DNA of 64,000 nucleotides from Octopus vulgaris. Its lineage: Eukaryota. Each line of letters begins with the position of its first letter. Position 1 is the first letter of the stretch. The stretch covers positions 17,546,001 through 17,610,000 of the forward strand of contig OX597830.1 of assembly GCA_951406725.2 (NCBI GenBank). The letters run 5' to 3'. The notes below the pieces were generated by a model, which saw nothing but the letters and a program-made list of their open reading frames with translations, was not told where the DNA came from and did not search any database. Shown here piece after piece: positions 6,863 to 52,006 of the stretch. Position numbers and translations under genes: made by a program.

Positions 6863-7625
<763 letters not shown>

Positions 7626-14005: not shown

Positions 14006-14159
14006 TATTGCTATATAATCCGGTGACTATGCATAATAGCTCTAGCTTATCACAAGAACTCAAGCTAATACAGTTCTATGTTTAAGAGATGAGGAATTAT
14101 GTACATTATTTACATTATTTACATTCGCCGGATATTTGTCCTCATCTTGTTTGTTGTTA

Positions 14160-14203
14160 ACACAACGTTTCGGTTGATATACCCCCAAGCCTTCTTCAGG
14201 TGT
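14160..14203 (-). ncRNA. Minimal type I hammerhead ribozyme motif (Penelope-like)
   Basis: Minus strand reads acac-CUGAAGA-aggcu...aacc-GAAA-cg-UU-gugu: helix I acac/gugu, conserved core, palindromic AACGUU in place of helix III. Confidence 0.7.
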
Positions 14204-21649: not shown

Positions 21650-21963
21650 TTTTTTACAAATATGGTTGGCGCAAGTTGACCAAAATTGAGAGTATGATAG
21701 AAAACCTGTTCTTCATTCCGTAGAAGATAAAATTCAAATTGGACCATGTTAACACCAAAAATTTTTTACATCAAAAAGGTACTTTTTTTTCTATGAAATC
21801 TCTATTTCTTACGATTTTTTGTTGCCATTTTTCGGTGTATTTCAACCAGAAAAATGTTCACTTAAAGAGAATAACAAGCTACATAATGCAAAACTTTTAC
21901 TTTTCAAAAATTCCAATTCTAAAGGGTCGAAACAAACCCGAGCAACGTCGAGCGGTACTGCTA

Positions 21964-21964
<1 letters not shown>
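21650..21964 (+). mobile_element. Non-autonomous Helitron, 5'-truncated
   Basis: Ends with hairpin CCCGAGCAACGTCGAG then CTAG; homologous to the inverted copy at 31263-31654. Confidence 0.75.
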
Positions 21965-22052
<88 letters not shown>

Positions 22053-22136
22053 GGTCCTGGGTTGAGTCAGGGTTAACCACAGTAAATAAGGTACTCAATA
22101 CATTGCAGAGTAAATTAATTTATTTTATTGAAGGAG

Positions 22137-22183
22137 CTTCTACAGGACTAGTACTGTTTCATTCAAATGAAATCATCAGGAAG
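22137..22183 (-). ncRNA. Minimal type I hammerhead ribozyme motif (Penelope-like)
   Basis: Minus strand reads cuuc-CUGAUGA-u(uuc auuu gaa)u-GAAA-cag uacuaguc cug-UA-gaag: all three helices pair, the core is canonical and helix III is near-palindromic. Confidence 0.75.
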
Positions 22184-22209
22184 ATATATTTGCATATCTA
22201 AATATGCAG

Positions 22210-22263
<54 letters not shown>

Positions 22264-22717
22264 CTGTATATTTAGATATGCAAATATGCATAAACAAGCA
22301 TTAAGGGATAAATGAAACATCAGTCATTGGCAAAAAAAGTCATTTATATAAATACAATACATTCAATTATATATTACATGGAAAGGATTAAAATATATCA
22401 CAACATATGTCGATATATAACAATATAAAACAATGCATCCTCAAAACAGTGGACTGTATCAGCCTTTGCTTTACCCTTGGATAACATTGATGGCGTGGAG
22501 AGGAGAGGCTGGAATGCATGAGTAACTGCTGGTCTTCCATAATGAATCTTGCCCGGATTTGTGCCTCAGAGGTGAACTTTCCAGCGGCAATCCCATGGTC
22601 ATTCATGACCGAAGGGGTTCTTTACTCAGGTCACTTCAAGTCCAGAACAACCTGACACTCATGGCAGTTTCCCTCTCCCAAAAGTAAACTTCAGACTGAA
22701 TTGAAACTTAAACTTTT

Positions 22718-22951
22718 AAGGCGGCGAGCTGGCAGAAACGTTAGCACGCCGGGCGAGAATGCTTAGCGGTATTTCGTCTGTCGTTACGTTCTGAGTTCAA
22801 ATTCCGCCGAGGTCGACTTTACCTTTCATCCTTTCGGGGTCGATAAATTAAGTACCAGTTACGCACTGGGGTCGATGTAATCGACTTAATCCGTTTGTCT
22901 GTCCTTGTTTGTCCCCTCTGTGTTTAGCCCCTTATCGGCAATAAAAGAAAT
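22718..22951 (+). mobile_element. SINE family A
   Basis: Near-consensus copy with an imperfect GAATTGAAA... TSD. Confidence 0.9.
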
Positions 22952-24689: not shown

Positions 24690-26062
24690 AAGAAGGGGTT
24701 ACAGAAAACGGATGTCAACACTTTGGGTAGAGCAGGGTATGTTTCAAGTGACTGAGCAGAGACTAGTAGATGAAGCTAATGCTGTTAGGAGAAGAAAGTG
24801 TATGATAGAATTGGAGGTGGAAGAGATTACAGAGATCAAAAGAGAACTGGAAAAGAAATATCAGGCAGTAGAAAAGACAAACAACAACATAAGAGATACA
24901 GCTCAAACTAAATAAGAACCTAAAGGAAAAAATAACAATAGCGTCTCCAGTAAGGAAGAGACAACTGGCACTAGTGATTTAAGCGATTTAAGTGAGGAAG
25001 ATCAGAAGATTTTAGATGAGTTACAGGAAGTAATGAGTAAAGAAGTAAGAAAAGGATTGCCAGCATTAAAAGGCATCAACAGAAGGAAGCTGCTAGAGAT
25101 GACTAGGAAAGTAGATTCTGTTATCAATAGGATAGATACTAAAAATGTAGGAAGGGTAATAGTTACTAGAAGATTAGATAGTCCAGAAGGTAAAATTAGA
25201 AAAGAGCAAATGTGGAAAAGGTGATTACAAAATAAAGTGAAAATTTAAGACAAGATCAGAGTACTATAGAAGCCTGGAAACTGAAAATGTTGGGAAACAC
25301 AAGATTCAAATCTTCTCTTGAGAAAAGATACTTAGTCAAAGAGAAAGGATTTTGGACTGTTATAGAAGAGTTGAAAGTGCGTATCATAGCAATAGCAGGT
25401 AAGCTTTCCAGATATCAGAAAATAATCGATCAGTATCAACAGAATAGATAATTTGAGACAGACTAGAGGAGATTTTATAACCAAATAAATAGTGGAGAAT
25501 AAAGAACTGAAGATGAGATACCTAATTCAGACGAAGCTAGAAAATTCTGGAATAATATTTGGGATAAGTCAGTCACTCATAATGGAGATGCAGTATGGTT
25601 AAAGAAAGTGAGGGAAGAAATAGTGAGTGAGAAGCAGCCAGGTCCAGGACCAGATTTGTTTCAAGGGTATTGGCTAAAGAAATTCAGTAGTCTACATGGG
25701 AGGCTGAGGGAACAGCTTCAGGATTACCTTAATGGAGGAATAATACCAGATTGGATGCCTAGAGGGAGAACAATACTCCTTATGAAAGATTAAAGCAAGG
25801 GTAATACAGCTAACAATGGAAGACCAACAACTTGCTTACCTTTAATCTGGAAGCTGTTAACAGGAATGCTTTTAGAAAGCATTTACGAGCACCTTGGTAG
25901 CTAGAATTTATTGCCAGAACAGTAAGGTTGCAGGAAGAAGGCAAGAAGTAAAAGCTAGAAAGAAAAATCAAACAATAGCATGGATAGATTATAAGAAAGC
26001 CTATGATATGATCCCACACTCAAGGATAAGTGAATGTTTGAGTATGTTCAGTATAGCAAATA
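24690..26062 (+). pseudogene. R4/Dong-clade LINE, N-terminal and RT remnant
   Basis: TEQRLVDEANAVRR; PGPDLFQGYWLKKF...PDWMPRGRTILL; AWIDYKKAYDMIPHS; many stops and frameshifts. Confidence 0.85.
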
Positions 26063-26065
26063 CCA

Positions 26066-26252
26066 TGTGTTTGTTCCCCCAACATCGCTTGACAACCGAT
26101 GCTGGTGCGTTTACGTACCCGTAACTTAGCGGTTAAAAGAGAACGATAGAATAAGTACTAGGCTTACAAAAATAAGTCCTGGAGTCGATTAGCTCCACTA
26201 AAGGTGGTGCTCCAGCATAGCCGCAGTCAACATGACTGAAACAAGTAAAAGA

Positions 26253-31020: not shown

Positions 31021-31262
31021 TTGTTTTACCTTAAAAAGGTTGCATCCCCATGAAGTAGACTGGAGGCAACATTCCCCTAACATCATCATGAACAACTGCA
31101 AGCTAGAATTTACACACCTCAGCTCCACCATCACAAACGGAATTTTGAGCTACAACGCCTGGCCATTCCATATGTATATATATATATATATATACATACA
31201 TACATGTGTACATCCAAAAATACATACATATATATGTATGTATGTATATATATATATATATG

Positions 31263-31654
31263 CTAGCAGTATAGTCCGGCGTTGCTCGGGTTTGTTCGAC
31301 CCTTTAGAATTGGAATTTTTGAAAAGTAAAAATTTTGCATTATGTAGCTTGTTATTCTCTTTAAGTGAACATTTTTCTGGTTGAAATACACCGAAAAATG
31401 GCGACACGGCAGTCAAAAAATCGTAAAAAATAAGGATTTTCATAGAAAAAAAAGCACCTTTTTGATGTAAATAATTTTTGGTCTTAACATGGTTCGATTT
31501 GAAATTTATCTTCTACGGAATGAAAAGTAAGCCTTCTTCTATCATACTCTCAATTTTGGTCAACTTGCGTCACAGGGCCTCGGAGGAGATAGTGTTAGTT
31601 GAAGGCTACCAAACCTGCCACACACAGACAACTTCAGCTTTATATATATATTGA
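31263..31654 (-). mobile_element. Non-autonomous Helitron, apparently full length
   Basis: Minus strand starts TCAATATATATATAAAGCTGAAG and ends with hairpin CCCGAGCAACGCCGGA followed by CTAG. Confidence 0.78.
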
Positions 31655-45152: not shown

Positions 45153-45469
45153 GTATGTATATGGGACACACACGCACTTTCACAAACATTCATACAAATC
45201 CTCCCAAACTTACACACATACATGCATACGTACATAATCCATATATTCGACTGTCGTGACTTTAAGTTTCACGTTGAGACGATCAGCGAGGCTCAAAGGC
45301 AATGGATACTGAATAAATATAGGATTACTCTGCAGTATGTATTGAGTACCTTTATTCTCGTTCATGATAACGTATGTGTGACTATGTATGTATGTATGTA
45401 TGTATGTATGTATGTATGTATGTATGTATGTATGTATTAAGAAGATAAAGGGAGGAAAAGAACAAAAAT

Positions 45470-46427: not shown

Positions 46428-46659
46428 CTTCCGACGCCGTTAGACGTACGTGAATCAGCTCCGTGAATTTGACACCAATTTCATTGGAAATCTATTAATA
46501 GGTTTGAATATTTTTTAATATTTCTGTAGCCAAACCGACCGGCTTCTTGCGGAGCTCGTCGGTTGGGCGAAATTTTGCCCCATTCGGGGTGAAATTGCGT
46601 TTGAAAATTTTGAACATTTGACATTTTTCAACATTTTGAATATTACAACAAGAAAAAAC

Positions 46660-47683
46660 ATGGCTATGAAGCGAACAGTTGGCTGTTCCTTCCTTCAAAA
46701 TACACTCCCTCCGCAAACACGCACAACTCGTACAAAACACCCACTTCACGCCTTAAAAGGCAACAAAGATTCTCCTTCCGAACCGCAGAGCACGCGCTCG
46801 GTTCAAAAGGAAAATGCAAGTCATGACGTCGCGTTCGACGTAATTCTTGATTTTCCCCCTCTGCCTTCACCCAATGCTTTGGTAAGGAAGGAGGAGGGAG
46901 AAAAAACAAATACAAAAATCATCACAAACATTGACACGGAGATAAAAGAAAAAACTTCCAACAATTTTGCTTCTGCTGCGAAGCAAATTTCGGAGGAAGT
47001 TAAGATAACTCTAGAAGATGTGAAAAGAGCGAAGGAATTGTTAAGGAAGGATGGCAATGGTATCTTCCTCAATACTCCAGAAGAGGTGATTGAAAGCACC
47101 AACAAGCAAACAATAATTTACAAAGTTTTCGACAGAAAACTAAAAAGAATAACAAATGCCACACCCCAACAGTTGGAGATAGCTCTAAAGCCCATTTGGG
47201 CCCAAAAGAGCTACGTAACCAAGGGGAAGCGTTTTGGAACCGTGGAGGTTCGCTTCCCAACAGAGGAGCTGGCAAGGGCGAACGCCATTTCGCCCTTGCA
47301 AACTGAGAATTTGTTACTAATTCCAACCCACCTCGGGCGAAGAGTTACAAAAATAAAAATCGACCTCGTCCCCCCTGAATTAAATATGTCATGGCTGGTG
47401 GCAGCTGTCCTCTATGATATAGAGGACACTACCACCATTCTAGATGTCAGGAGAGTGAGGGCGAAAAACTGGTTGGGGATGGGAGTGCTGCTTCTTGCGC
47501 AAATTCAGCAAGAGAATATAAGTAAAGTCCCTGATTTCGTAAGTTTGCCGGACGGCACTAGGCTAAACGTTGCTGTGGAGGGGCGAAAGCCAAAATGCTT
47601 TCTCTGCAGCAGCGAAAGCCACTTAAAGAGGGACTGTCCCATTCACAAAAAGAGGATGGAGGCTTTCAGCAAGAGGCAGCAGC

Positions 47684-47729
<46 letters not shown>

Positions 47730-48600
47730 CAAGCAACAACAACAGAAACAACAAAAACAGCAAGAAACACCAAAGGCTGCCACACCACCAACACCATCAC
47801 CAACACCAGCACCAAGACGAGCAACACCACCTCCAACAACAACAACCACCACCAAACCAACACCGACAACCACCACCAAACCAACACCGACACCAGTACC
47901 TCGAAGGTCGACAGCAGCGACATCAACAGTAACAGGAGCAGCGGCACCACCGATACCGGTGGAACCAGAAACTTTTCGTCCTGCTACTGAAGCAGACCCC
48001 TCAACCATTCCTTTGCCGGATGAAGAGATCTCGGATTGTGCGAGCTCTGATTCCAACAAAGGAGAATGGAGTATAGTGCCTCCAAAGAAGAAAAGGAGGA
48101 AGAAACAAAAAGATTTACAGGGGAAGCACGAACAAATAGTGCTTCCCAACATCAACAACAACAACAACAACAACACACACTCACAACAACAAACAACAAC
48201 AACACTTTCGACACCACTACTGCCACTGCCACACACACAAACACACACAGACACAATTACATCAATAAACACAAAGAACCAAAAACTAGTGGAGTACTTA
48301 AAAAACAAAACTAGTACAAATATAACCGATTTCATCATACCAACACAAAACACACCACCAGCACACATTCTCACAATAAAAATAAATGCAAAATCATATG
48401 ATGAAATCAAACAAATATTCCCTAACGATGTGGGATCGCTAGGAAAAGTTTCTCGAAGAAACTTTATAAAAACATTGTGGAAGCACCCGTGCAAAAGCAC
48501 AAGGGAGCCACCCCCACCACCAACAACAGTAAGTAGAGCCTTTTTTTCTCCTTTTTCCCCCTACTTTGAGACATGGCAAATCTTAGAATCGGTTGCTTGA
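46660..48600 (+). CDS. LINE ORF1 protein (646 aa from the first ATG) with RRM-like region and CCHC knuckle
   Basis: KGKRFGTVEVRF; CFLCSSESHLKRDC (CX2CX4HX4C); polyQ and Pro/Thr-rich tail; NLS-like PPKKKRRKK. Confidence 0.88.
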
Positions 48601-51434
48601 ATGTGAGAGGCCTCGGGTCACCTTGGAAACAGGGTCACCTGTTAAACGACCTGAGGTTTCATGATGTGGATGTAGCAGCCATCAGTGAAACCAGGCTCTC
48701 CGACCCGCAGGAACTCGCAGCCCTTTTCGGCGGATACGAGATATTTCTATCTCCGTGTCGGCCGGGAGCGGGCGGTGGTGGTACTGCGGTGTTGTTTCGG
48801 AAGGGCCTGGACCTGAAAATAAGGACAGTCTTCTTGGATCCGGAAGGTAAGTTGGTGGTCCTCGACGTCGACGGTAGTGACGGCGGTGCTTTCAGACTGC
48901 TGGCTGCCTACGCTCCGACAGGAGCAGGGCAGTCGGATTATTTCAAACGTCTGGAAGTTTTCCTGGGAACGTCACGCACTCTAGTACTAGTTGGGGATTG
49001 GAACGCTGTCTTAGACGAACGTTTCGATCGGGTGGGCAGGGGAGCGTCTGTTAGGAGAGGGGGAGGGTGCAAGAGCCTCGCCAACCTACTCGGCCGCTTT
49101 CAGCTGTCCGACAGGTTTCGACTAGACAACCCGAATGTGCCAATGTGGACTTGGACAAACCGCATCGGGTCGTCTAGATCGTACTTAGATAGAGTGTTTT
49201 GTAGGCCAGCGGATAAGGACAGCGTAGGGTGTCCACAATTCCACCTAGTCGAATATACGGACCACAAATTAGTGATCTGTACGGTCGACTTAGATAGGCT
49301 ACATAGACAGGGACCCGGCTACTGGAAGCTGAACGCGTCGTTAACGGCGTGCAAAGCTTACAGAGACCGGATTAGTTTACTAGTTAAGCGGGCGCTCACG
49401 GGGGCAATCATCAACAACAACTGGTGGTTTGCCCTCAAGAGAGCAATTAGAGTAGAGTCGATTAGGTATAGTAAGACTCTAGCTATTGAACGTAGGAAGA
49501 GAGAGCGGGATTTAGTTAAGAAACTAGACGAGGCTCTTGACACTGGCATCGCGACTGACGTGTTGGCGGCAAGGTTGGCCCTCGACCAACACTTCGACGC
49601 CAAACACGAAGGCTGCGTTGTCAGAGCTAAGGCACGTTCGCTAAACGGGGAGGGGACTAGAGCCGCTCGATGGGCCCGCGTGGCGGAGGCGAAGCGAGGC
49701 AACAAAGCAACCATTCGGTCTTTGGTGGACCAGAACGGGCGTGAGGTTACCCAACCGAAGCAGATGTGTACGGTGCTTCAGCGGCACTTTGCTCAACTGT
49801 TTGGGACGAGCGGTGGAACGGACACCAACGGTACAGACTTCGGTGTGTACCTGGACGGACTGCCGCAACTCTCGGACAGCGAGGCGGAGTGCTGCGAAGG
49901 ACCGATATCTGCCTGGGAAGTACAGGAAGCGATGAAGAGTTGCACGAGAGGTAGATCGCCGGGTTTGGATGGTCTGCCCTACGAGCTTTACTTTTCGATG
50001 CCAGACTTGTTTGCGGACCTGTTGGCAAACGTCTACTGCAACTGGCAGCAAAACGGGAGAATTCCTGCTTTTGTCTGTCGAGGGGTGGTGGCTTTGCTAA
50101 AGAAGGACCCAAACAAGGGGGACGTTATAGGGAATTTCCGGCCCATCACTCTGCTCAATGCAGAGTTGAAGATTTTGGCCAAGGTGCTAGCCAAGAGATT
50201 GGCGCTTGTCGTGGACAAGCTGGTCGGCGGGACGCAGACATGCGCCGTGCCGACCAGGTCGATACACGACAACCTCCATCTCATGCGCTACATCATAGAG
50301 AGGGTGGGTAACGACGCTGGCGCGGGTGGGGCTTTGATCAACTTGGATCAGAGTAAAGCCTTCGATAGGGTCGACCATCAGTACCTGGCAGCTGTCCTCA
50401 AGGCAGCCGGCTTCGGTCCAGTCTTCCGCGGGTGGATCGCTGCTTTATACAGCAACATCTGCTCGGTGATACGGGTGAACGGTCACCTTTCGGAACCGTT
50501 CGACATCTCGCGTTCGGTCCGCCAGGGATGCCCTCTCTCCTCCCTCTTGTACATTTTGACTCTCGAGCCATTACTGCGCAAGTTGGAGGCTTTGAGGGGC
50601 ATCCCGCGCGATCTAGGAGGCGGAAACAGCGTGTCTGCTTATGCCGACGACGTCACCGTGGTGGTGTCGAGCCACAGGCACATTAGCCTGATTGGCGAGA
50701 CGCTAAACCAGTACGAAGCGGTGACAGGGGCAAAGATTAACGCGGAAAAGTCTGTGGGCTTGCAACTGGGCACCTGGAGAGGCAAGCCCATGCCGTCCAA
50801 CAGCGTCGTAGGGCGCTGGACAGACGGACCCGTTAAACTGCTCGGGGTCTGGTTCGGTCCGGACCTACAGGTGGATAAGAACTGGGAAGAGGTGACGAGC
50901 AGAGTGGCACGTCTCACCCAGAAATGGGCCGAGAGGAAGCTGTCCCTGAAAGGTCGAGCGGAGGTGGCGAATGCGTACATCGCATCCGTCATCTATTACC
51001 GCTTGACCGTCGTCCCTTGTCCCAACCGCTGGTTGGCCAAGCTGGTACGTCTGCTCTTCGACTTTTTGTGGAAGGGTCAGGTGCCACTGGTCAGGCGATC
51101 CATCTGCTGTCAACGACCGCTGAACGGAGGCCTTGGAATGCCGTGGTTGCTGTTGCGCAGACATGCGCTCAGGCTGCGGCATCTCAAGCGCTTCCTAGAC
51201 GGTGAACAGGTGTGGTCGTCTTTTGTCAGACGCGATTTTCCGCAGCTCGTCTCTTTGACGGAGCTGCAGACCTGGATCAAACGTAGACCGAGAAAGGGCG
51301 CTTGGCACCTCGAGTGCCGTCAAGCCCTCTCCGCCCTCCACCAGGCGGGCAATGCGGTCGGTTACAGCTCCACTCTAGCGTTCTATAGAGGGTTAGTGGA
51401 GGAAAATGCGACGACGTTCTCGGGGAAACTCTAG
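48573..51434 (+). CDS. LINE ORF2: APE endonuclease and reverse transcriptase
   Basis: CLNVRGL, ISET, GDWN, SYLDR, TDH; WKLN; SPGLDGL; NFRPITLLN; LDQSKAFD; VRQGCPLS; YADD. Confidence 0.96.
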   Translation: MANLRIGCLNVRGLGSPWKQGHLLNDLRFHDVDVAAISETRLSDPQELAALFGGYEIFLSPCRPGAGGGGTAVLFRKGLDLKIRTVFLDPEGKLVVLDVDGSDGGAFRLLAAYAPTGAGQSDYFKRLEVFLGTSRTLVLVGDWNAVLDERFDRVGRGASVRRGGGCKSLANLLGRFQLSDRFRLDNPNVPMWTWTNRIGSSRSYLDRVFCRPADKDSVGCPQFHLVEYTDHKLVICTVDLDRLHRQGPGYWKLNASLTACKAYRDRISLLVKRALTGAIINNNWWFALKRAIRVESIRYSKTLAIERRKRERDLVKKLDEALDTGIATDVLAARLALDQHFDAKHEGCVVRAKARSLNGEGTRAARWARVAEAKRGNKATIRSLVDQNGREVTQPKQMCTVLQRHFAQLFGTSGGTDTNGTDFGVYLDGLPQLSDSEAECCEGPISAWEVQEAMKSCTRGRSPGLDGLPYELYFSMPDLFADLLANVYCNWQQNGRIPAFVCRGVVALLKKDPNKGDVIGNFRPITLLNAELKILAKVLAKRLALVVDKLVGGTQTCAVPTRSIHDNLHLMRYIIERVGNDAGAGGALINLDQSKAFDRVDHQYLAAVLKAAGFGPVFRGWIAALYSNICSVIRVNGHLSEPFDISRSVRQGCPLSSLLYILTLEPLLRKLEALRGIPRDLGGGNSVSAYADDVTVVVSSHRHISLIGETLNQYEAVTGAKINAEKSVGLQLGTWRGKPMPSNSVVGRWTDGPVKLLGVWFGPDLQVDKNWEEVTSRVARLTQKWAERKLSLKGRAEVANAYIASVIYYRLTVVPCPNRWLAKLVRLLFDFLWKGQVPLVRRSICCQRPLNGGLGMPWLLLRRHALRLRHLKRFLDGEQVWSSFVRRDFPQLVSLTELQTWIKRRPRKGAWHLECRQALSALHQAGNAVGYSSTLAFYRGLVEENATTFSGKL

Positions 51435-52006
51435 GCGTTGAAGACGACGAACTGAGCAGTCTGTTCGGGAGGACTTTCGGGCCGGGGCCGATGGATAATT
51501 TCCAGAGGTCTCTCGCCTGGCAGTGCTACCGAGGGGCTCTGCCTGTTCGAGATAAACTCTACCGGCACGGAAGTGCCGTCAGCCGGGCCTGCCCGAGGTG
51601 TTGCCAGGACGACGAAACCGTTCTGCACGCACTCGTCCAGTGCCCGAGTATTGCTGAAATATGGGTTTATGTCGAACAGCTACTGTCACGTGTGGGACGG
51701 ATCCGACTATCGGCCGAATCCATAGTGAAGATTGCCCCGCCGACCTCCTTTAACAAGGAGGGCGAGGCCGTTTTCTTGTGCCTAGTGGCTGTGGCGAAAG
51801 AGGTCGTGTGGTGGACTCGTTTAAAAGGGCTAAAGACAGACACTTTCCTCTTTGGTCAAGGCCTCATCAACTTTTTCAAGTTTCACTTGAAAAGGAAGAT
51901 GAGGTTAGAGAGGAAGGTGCTGTCCGATAGCAAGTTTTATGAAAGGTGGGTGAATTGTGCGAGACTGGCCTGTATAAATGGACCAGTTCTCAGGTTTCGC
52001 CTGTGA
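51400..52006 (+). CDS. ORF2 C-terminus after the frameshift, including the zinc finger
   Basis: Frame is open from ~51400 (KCDDVLGETLG...) into ORF 51491-52006, which contains CPRCCQDDETVLHALVQC. Confidence 0.88.

What the first reader, a model, noticed from the sequence alone, without database searches (positions are those of the whole stretch)
22050..22290. Canonical minimal hammerhead beside a foldback centred on (TA)n
Seen: cuuc-CUGAUGA-stem II-GAAA-cag uacuaguc cug-UA-gaag on minus. Helix III is one mismatch from the palindrome CAGGACTAGTCCTG, and AATAAA follows. Immediately 5' is an inverted repeat of about 26 bp (22186-22211 / 22260-22287) around (TA)n. The downstream TTACTCTGCA..TGTATTGAGTACCTT recurs at ~45325-45352, so this is a dispersed family. 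Its sequence is unrelated to the 14160 motif, implying a second non-autonomous ribozyme family that favours (TA)n (inference).
Basis: partly seen in the sequence, partly recalled or inferred. Interest (0 to 1): 0.7.

Follow-up and report, generated by a model that had tools for sequence, protein, structure and literature searches.

The report
Hammerhead-headed short Penelope-type repeat copy
A real hammerhead-shaped self-cutting RNA motif heads one solo, slightly truncated copy of a very abundant short repeat that likely is the end piece of a Penelope-type jumping gene, a known kind, and the foldback beside it is likely a one-off scar of the insertion rather than part of the element.

Summary
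The motif is there: a type I hammerhead on the minus strand (core 22179-22173, GAAA 22160-22157, predicted cut 22141^22140). It is the only strict hit in 64 kb, and 0 of 300 shuffles gave one. It is not canonical: helix II closes with U·U, and a shifted hairpin is predicted to hide GAAA. Public runs show a very abundant family spanning about 22050-22185 (4061, 1366, 1315 and 71 contigs laid). Core and helix II show no common variant there, helix I likely reaches 6 bp, and several 3' ends abut (TA)n. The 27-bp foldback is not family sequence; it is an inverted copy of the adjacent flank, likely made by snap-back at (TA)n during insertion. The 45.3-kb match is a different, decayed module that shares a 13-nt box. 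Best reading: the end module (pLTR plus tail) of a Penelope-like element, truncated or non-autonomous. No RT or GIY-YIG ORF could be linked to it. Hammerheads in Penelope elements, U·U closure, microsatellite targeting and snap-back junctions are all in print. New member of a known kind; interest low.

The parts
22050..22183 (-). Repeat module (hammerhead, AATAAA, conserved box, tail); likely a Penelope-type pLTR end, 5'-truncated 2 nt into helix I
   Evidence: Thousands of contigs laid on this span in four runs; depth collapses past 22185; loose ends behind 22183 begin with the two letters that extend helix I in 4 of 4 runs
22137..22183 (-). Type I hammerhead motif: helix I 4 bp here (6 bp in the family), CUGAUGA, helix II U·U plus 3 bp, GAAA, helix III 4 bp with a CUAG-centred 8-nt loop, predicted cut after UA at 22141^22140
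   Evidence: no variant at 3% or more listed for 22153-22183
22157..22172 (-). Near-perfect 16-nt palindrome overlapping helix II and GAAA; competing hairpin; site of head-to-head junctions in other copies
   Evidence: GAAA paired into the shifted hairpin with probability 0.55 (this copy) and 0.72 (family majority), helix II 0.01; 5 contigs of run X1 turn back at 22172 (table 7)
22119..22124 (-). AATAAA kept in the family (the overlapping one at 22129-22124 is private to this copy)
22090..22102 (-). 13-nt box TGTATTGAGTACC in a stem-loop with the AATAAA region, shared with other hammerhead-bearing ends
   Evidence: also at window 45.34 kb, L035 and L054
22050..22080 (-). Candidate optional 3' tail of about 30 nt
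   Evidence: depth step in runs X1 and X3 (about 1.0 million to about 0.2 million summed depth), gradual in X2; a hint only, since contig depth is no copy number
21966..22049 (.). (AT)n run at the element's 3' end; likely the insertion target
   Evidence: (AT)n loose ends at 22118 in 13, 15 and 12 contigs of X1-X3
22184..22212 (.). Two extra bases plus a 27-bp inverted copy of the flank; not family sequence
22213..22260 (.). (TA)n centre of the foldback
22261..22287 (.). Flank arm that served as the likely template of the inverted copy; runs on into unrelated sequence
45258..45352 (+). Related but distinct decayed module: helix I arms, G-C-closed hairpin and UC, but no CUGANGA or GAAA; then AATAAA and the shared box; ends at (TATG)n
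   Evidence: the helix reading is by eye

Best explanation
This is a solo 134-base copy of a very abundant short repeat headed by a type I hammerhead motif, likely the end module (pLTR plus tail) of a Penelope-like retroelement that was likely inserted into an (AT)n run by target-primed reverse transcription. Shown: the motif, the family and its conserved core, 3' ends at (TA)n, and that the foldback arm copies the flank and is not family sequence. Inferred: a Penelope RT-endonuclease cut the (AT)n run and copied the RNA from a site just past the conserved box. At the 5' junction a free 3' end folded back in the self-complementary (TA)n, or the cDNA end jumped onto the flank, copied 27 bases and then joined the element 2 nt inside helix I. 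The family ribozyme would cut weakly, helped by dimer pairing through helix III or by protein. This lone, helix-I-shortened copy is probably inert.
For: Motif beyond chance (0 of 300). Family of 4061, 1366, 1315 and 71 contigs in two organism labels, with core, helix II and helix III arms free of variants at 3% or more and helix I extended by the first two loose letters in 4 of 4 runs. Hallmarks of Penelope elements from PMC8557442, PMC3846280 and PMC11167929: hammerhead near the end, microsatellite or AT-rich targets, optional 30-40-nt tail, inverted 5' junctions at palindromes. Here: (AT)n at the 3' ends, a depth step about 30 nt from the end in 2 of 3 large runs, head-to-head loose ends at 22172 in 5 contigs of X1. 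The palindromic helix III loop gives a self-duplex of -14.2 kcal/mol for the family majority. PMC4209133 Fig. S3 lists a similar helix III and UA site in Saccoglossus (2), not marked there as ORF-linked, and an ORF-linked shrimp motif with UA and A-U closure. U·U at the base of helix II occurs in axolotl HHR_Amex2, which cut 22% in 1 h as a monomer and better as a dimer (PMC7229834 section 15). The downstream box recurs after hammerhead-shaped motifs in 2 of 52 metagenome loci, against 0 of 121 prokaryote and 0 of 24 viral pattern matches. Snap-back onto nearby target DNA is reported at R2 5' junctions (PMC11371274 passages), and 5-34-bp foldback duplications at DNA breaks (PMC11724301 abstract).
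Against: No RT or GIY-YIG ORF is linked: 0 Penelope-type Pfam hits in 20 + 97 frames scanned near the three hammerhead-related sites and in L035/L054. The one RT fragment nearby (25876-26121) is on the other strand. The motif lacks the G10.1-C11.1 pair and the long helix II of the minimal-hammerhead consensus. Folding disfavours the active form (helix II probability 0.01; z-score 0.23). Conservation may reflect a young family, since only 6 variable sites are listed over the whole module and no covariation was seen. Contig depth is no copy number, so the tail and end steps are hints. The box search selected for the box by construction. The foldback mechanism rests on one locus, and the empty site was not seen.
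Confidence: 0.72

Rival explanations
1. Solo monomer of a non-LTR retrozyme family: tandem arrays elsewhere self-cleave into circular RNAs that are reinserted.
For: No unpaired base after A9, a fuller helix III and U·U closure resemble canonical or axolotl retrozyme hammerheads more than minimal ones. Dispersed monomers of retrozymes are common (bioRxiv 2026.07.22.740005 passages). One X3 record joins 22183 to 22139, which may be a tandem junction (table 5c; ambiguous).
Against: Single copy in 64 kb. The module is 70-135 nt, below the 150-450 bp quoted for retrozyme repeats. Copies begin upstream of the core, not at the cut site. Loose ends past 22183 are mixed (agreement 0.61-0.76) and do not read as the module's own 3' end.
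Confidence: 0.13
2. The family is a short SINE-like or other repeat whose hammerhead is a dead relic or a chance shape; it spreads without cleavage.
For: Active fold disfavoured and GAAA predicted to be sequestered; no Rfam hit; no covariation seen; hammerhead cleavage was not needed for insertion by the anole Penelope protein in vitro (PMC11167929).
Against: All core positions plus helices I (6 bp) and III (4 bp) are kept; 0 of 300 shuffles; L035 has the same layout with a G-C-closed helix II and the same box.
Confidence: 0.1
3. The foldback is a separate small inverted-repeat element or an older rearrangement, and the hammerhead module landed next to it.
For: The arm has non-zero depth in three runs (about 135-1300 at 22192-22215); one mismatch between the arms.
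Against: The arm starts 2 nt from the truncation point. AT-rich microsatellites match the arm at 78-83% and could explain that depth. No second copy of the arm pair occurs in the window.
Confidence: 0.2

Closest known systems
Hammerheads in the pLTRs of metazoan Penelope-like elements (Cervera and de la Pena 2014, PMC4209133; parts 1-2 of 4 and supplement parts 1-2 of 3 read)
   Same: Type I topology, intact core, short helix I, palindromic helix III loop, AU-rich 3' side, mostly solo dispersed copies, predicted weak or dimer-dependent cleavage.
   Different: U·U instead of G10.1-C11.1, helix II only 3 bp, helix III 4 bp with an 8-nt loop; no link to a Penelope ORF shown.
Endonuclease-positive Penelope insertions with tail, inverted 5' junction and microsatellite bias (PMC3846280 and PMC8557442, passages; PMC11167929, parts 1-2 of 4)
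   Same: 3' ends about 60-130 nt past the hammerhead core, a candidate optional tail, (TA)n targets, head-to-head junctions at a palindrome in other copies.
   Different: Here the inverted piece copies the host flank, not the element. No ORF starts at the hammerhead's ATG (a stop follows after five codons). Six words of the module (8-12 letters) found no matching element in the Naiad/Chlamys/Hydra supplement (line breaks could hide a word).
Axolotl HHR_Amex2 of non-LTR retrozymes (Cervera and de la Pena 2020, PMC7229834; passages and section 15)
   Same: U·U mismatch at the base of helix II with a more stable helix III.
   Different: HHR_Amex2 sits in 350-bp tandem repeats that yield circular RNA; this copy is solo and short.
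Snap-back 5' junctions of R2 insertions (PMC11371274, passages) and foldback duplications at DNA breaks (PMC11724301, abstract)
   Same: A short inverted copy of nearby target DNA at the junction, of similar length.
   Different: Here it is centred on a (TA)n target of a natural insertion; the enzyme responsible is unknown.

Membership tests
Type I hammerhead ribozyme | Core CUGANGA, GAAA and UH in order | tested here: met
   no variant at 3% or more in the family
Type I hammerhead ribozyme | Three helices around the core, open at helix I | tested here: met
   helix I 4 bp (6 bp in the family), II 3 bp, III 4 bp; 0 of 300 shuffles; helix II is thermodynamically weak
Type I hammerhead ribozyme | Usual G10.1-C11.1 pair (conserved but with known exceptions) | tested here: not met
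   U·U in this copy and in the family; precedent HHR_Amex2
Type I hammerhead ribozyme | Match to an Rfam hammerhead model | tested here: not met
   none at E<=10 on 22050-22215
Type I hammerhead ribozyme | Self-cleavage after UH | not testable with these tools
   needs a bench assay
Penelope minimal hammerhead (PMC4209133 consensus) | Palindromic helix III / loop 3 | tested here: met
   CUAG-centred; self-duplex -16.6 (this copy) and -14.2 kcal/mol (family majority)
Penelope minimal hammerhead (PMC4209133 consensus) | Unpaired base after A9, then a long G-C-closed helix II | tested here: not met
   12-nt region with U·U and 3 bp; the paper's Fig. S3 also lists exceptions without the extra base
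Penelope-like element | ORF with telomerase-like RT and GIY-YIG endonuclease | tested here: inconclusive
   absent at this truncated locus; the family's upstream sequence could not be fetched (no genome held)
Penelope-like element | Hammerhead-bearing pLTR with an optional 30-40-nt tail | tested here: inconclusive
   depth step near 22080 in X1 and X3, not clear in X2
Penelope-like element | Inverted 5' junctions | tested here: inconclusive
   5 contigs of X1 turn back at 22172; single such ends in X3 and X6; library foldbacks not excluded
Penelope-like element | AT-rich or microsatellite target preference | tested here: met
   (AT)n at 22049; (AT)n loose ends at 22118 in 13, 15 and 12 contigs; other repeats of this window also abut (TA)n, so this is not specific
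Non-LTR retrozyme | Head-to-tail repeats of 150-450 bp, each with a hammerhead | tested here: not met
   single copy in 64 kb; genome-wide not testable
Non-LTR retrozyme | Unit-size circular RNA | not testable with these tools
   only assembled contigs were available

The most novel reading that the evidence does not exclude
A massive, non-autonomous micro-element of only 70-135 nt that starts at its hammerhead and ends just past a 13-nt box shared across distant hosts (a minimal cis-signal for Penelope RT). Its ribozyme is held off by a family-wide palindrome that hides GAAA until dimer pairing or protein binding frees it, and its 5' junctions are made by snap-back of the (TA)n target itself. 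This would explain both the microsatellite preference and the inverted 5' structures of Penelope insertions.
Probability: 0.15. Interest if true: 0.55.

Novelty: new member of a known kind. Interest (0 to 1): 0.25.

Why it matters
As a hammerhead in a Penelope-type end module it adds one more family to a kind described in 2014, and every unusual trait has a precedent. Two details could be of use to specialists. First, the junction is a clean natural record of a 27-base inverted copy of the target flank centred on (TA)n; if common among copies, it would show how the 5' end of such insertions is primed. Second, the short box recurring after hammerheads in several hosts is a candidate signal for internal RT initiation that can be tested in the existing in vitro system.

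Tried and rejected
No genome is held for this window, so no family alignment or covariation test was possible. Rfam: the whole-window scan was swamped by microsatellite-driven miRNA matches (150 of 293 rows shown, none a hammerhead); the local scan gave nothing relevant. Exact family words were absent from metagenome and prokaryote contigs; a helix-specific pattern found nothing in viral contigs. The looser core-plus-box pattern gave 24 viral, 56 metagenome and 121 prokaryote matches. Only L035 and L054 had hammerhead stems (that recheck recovered 52 of the 55 metagenome loci), neither had a Pfam hit in the frames scanned, and none of the viral or metagenome loci matched the element by blastn. 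L051's paired matches were rejected (A-rich, no helix II). No RNA holder was listed; run X6 is only guessed to be RNA, so nothing is said on expression. The window's full LINE at 46.5-52 kb and the RT fragment at 25.9 kb were rejected as partners. The published octopus Naiad elements target (TA)n, but the supplement held no element matching the module's words. Literature: a search for hammerhead + ribozyme + octopus listed 7 papers, none describing this family; the repeat library of PMC13282606 is on Zenodo and its supplement was listed but not read, so the family may already be in such a library or in Repbase/Dfam. A splice-acceptor reading of the AG before helix I was considered and set aside, because pairing with helix I explains it equally well.

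Full report
Setting. The window is microsatellite-rich animal DNA. I take it to be octopus-like from recall of its repeats; no call established the organism, and no genome is held.

Observation. It is the only hit in the window; 0 of 300 shuffles matched the strict descriptor and 11 of 300 a relaxed one, with thresholds chosen after seeing the motif. It is not canonical. Positions 10.1 and 11.1 are both U, and helix II has three pairs. No Rfam hammerhead model scored and the fold is no more stable than shuffles (z 0.23). A shifted hairpin takes up GAAA with probability 0.55 in this copy and 0.72 in the family-majority form; helix II has 0.01, against 0.58 in a G-C control. The energy model ignores core tertiary contacts, and the gap for the majority form is about 2 kcal/mol. 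The foldback arms are 22186-22212 and 22261-22287, 26 of 27 matching, around (TA)n at 22213-22260. It is 1 of 52 long TA runs with a non-microsatellite arm.

The family. Six variable sites at 3% or more were listed, none in 22153-22183, so core, U·U and helix II are family traits among contigs at least 80% alike. At 22152, 73-100% of depth carries another letter, which makes helix III less palindromic than in this copy (self-duplex -14.2 against -16.6 kcal/mol). At 22129, 90-99.9% carries another letter, which removes the first AATAAA and leaves the second (22124-22119). Depth falls from 155,050 to 1,289 (X1), 292,344 to 5,631 (X2) and 120,068 to 661 (X3) across 22185, so the foldback arm is not family sequence. 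Loose ends past 22183 (27, 21, 16 and 3 contigs) begin with the two letters that lengthen helix I to 6 bp in 4 of 4 runs and are otherwise mixed (agreement 0.61-0.76). This copy is therefore cut 2 nt into helix I, and many copies probably begin just upstream of the hammerhead; whether some run on into an ORF could not be seen. At the other end, (AT)n loose ends lie at 22118 (13, 15, 12 contigs), and depth steps down near 22118 and again near 22080 in X1 and X3 (gradually in X2), which hints at an optional tail of about 30 nt. Five contigs of X1 turn back on themselves at the helix II palindrome. Contig depth is no copy number, and uniformity may only mean a young family; no covariation was seen.

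The 45.3-kb match and the box. The match is real (26 of 28, E 1.6e-5) but lies in a different module that keeps helix I arms, a G-C-closed hairpin, UC and AATAAA and has lost both core boxes (read by eye). A pattern asking for the core plus this box returned 24 viral, 56 metagenome and 121 prokaryote matches. Hammerhead stems were present in 2 of 52 metagenome loci rechecked (L035, L054), 0 of 121 and 0 of 24. L035 has the same layout as the finding, with a 12-nt helix II region closed by G-C. The box was demanded by the search, and neither locus showed a Pfam hit, so this shows recurrence, not function. The 14160 motif is a separate minimal hammerhead of the textbook Penelope form.

Mechanism. 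Before insertion the site was likely one (AT)n run between a Helitron-like end on the left (label recalled; second copy at 31.3-31.6 kb) and the flank that starts at 22261. Inferred steps: a Penelope RT-endonuclease cut the run and copied the RNA from the tail end to 22183. A free 3' end then folded back in (TA)n, or the cDNA end jumped to the flank, copied 27 bases and joined with 2 extra bases. Both routes give the observed product. The family ribozyme would cleave weakly; this solo copy with a 4-bp helix I is probably inert. No partner ORF was found: the window's LINE has an APE endonuclease, and an RT fragment at 25.9 kb is on the other strand.

Comparison. PMC4209133 (parts 1-2 of 4; supplement parts 1-2 of 3) describes hammerheads in Penelope pLTRs, mostly solo, with palindromic helix III and weak dimer-dependent cleavage. 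Its consensus has G10.1-C11.1 and a long helix II, which this motif lacks, but its Fig. S3 holds exceptions close to it. PMC7229834 (passages, section 15) reports an active axolotl hammerhead with U·U at the base of helix II. PMC8557442 (passages; supplement searched), PMC3846280 (passages) and PMC11167929 (parts 1-2 of 4) give the tail, the inverted 5' junctions, the microsatellite or AT-rich bias, internal RT initiation about 110 nt into the ORF next to the hammerhead, and protein-assisted cleavage that is not needed for insertion. PMC11371274 (passages) and PMC11724301 (abstract) give precedent for short inverted copies of target DNA. bioRxiv 2026.07.22.740005 (part 1 of 5 and passages; its supplements not seen) derives animal retrozymes from pLTRs. 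PMC6765202, PMC2837043, PMC6962438 and PMC13282606 were seen as passages only. I found no description of this family, but repeat libraries were not searchable, so it may already be catalogued.

Verdict. A real feature, and a new member of a known kind. It works like a Penelope pLTR end module; membership is not proven because no ORF is linked. Interest 0.25. The boldest reading left open (a switchable ribozyme in a minimal non-autonomous element with target snap-back) has probability about 0.15 and would deserve about 0.55.

Noticed in passing
window 46519-52006 (+): Near-complete LINE: 693-aa first frame without a Pfam hit, 954-aa frame with APE endonuclease and RT, zf-RVT in the next frame.
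   Followed up: partly
window 21667-21965 and 31257-31572: Two 89%-identical copies of a repeat ending in a hairpin and CTAG directly before (AT)n; looks like a Helitron 3' end (recalled).
   Followed up: no
window about 14145-14200 (-): Minimal hammerhead of the Penelope form: CUGAAGA, unpaired A, G-C-closed helix II, ACGU helix III, 5-bp helix I; my descriptor did not score it, it was read by eye.
   Followed up: partly
window 45258-45352 (+): Hammerhead relic lacking both core boxes, followed by AATAAA and the shared 13-nt box, ending at (TATG)n.
   Followed up: partly
L035 160-275 (+) and L054 175-271 (+): Hammerhead-shaped motifs followed by the same 13-nt box in two metagenome contigs without a recognisable ORF.
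   Followed up: partly
window 25876-26121 (+): 82-aa RT fragment (Pfam RVT_1, E 6.8e-5) with no similarity to the window's LINE.
   Followed up: partly
window 22048-22217, run X3: One record joins 22183 to 22139 with one letter between, possibly a head-to-tail hammerhead tandem at another locus; listed only in table 5c.
   Followed up: no
window from about 22721 (+), and 7399 (+): A SINE-like repeat starts near 22721 and the same start follows a (TA)n run at 7399, so (TA)n runs here attract several repeat families.
   Followed up: no
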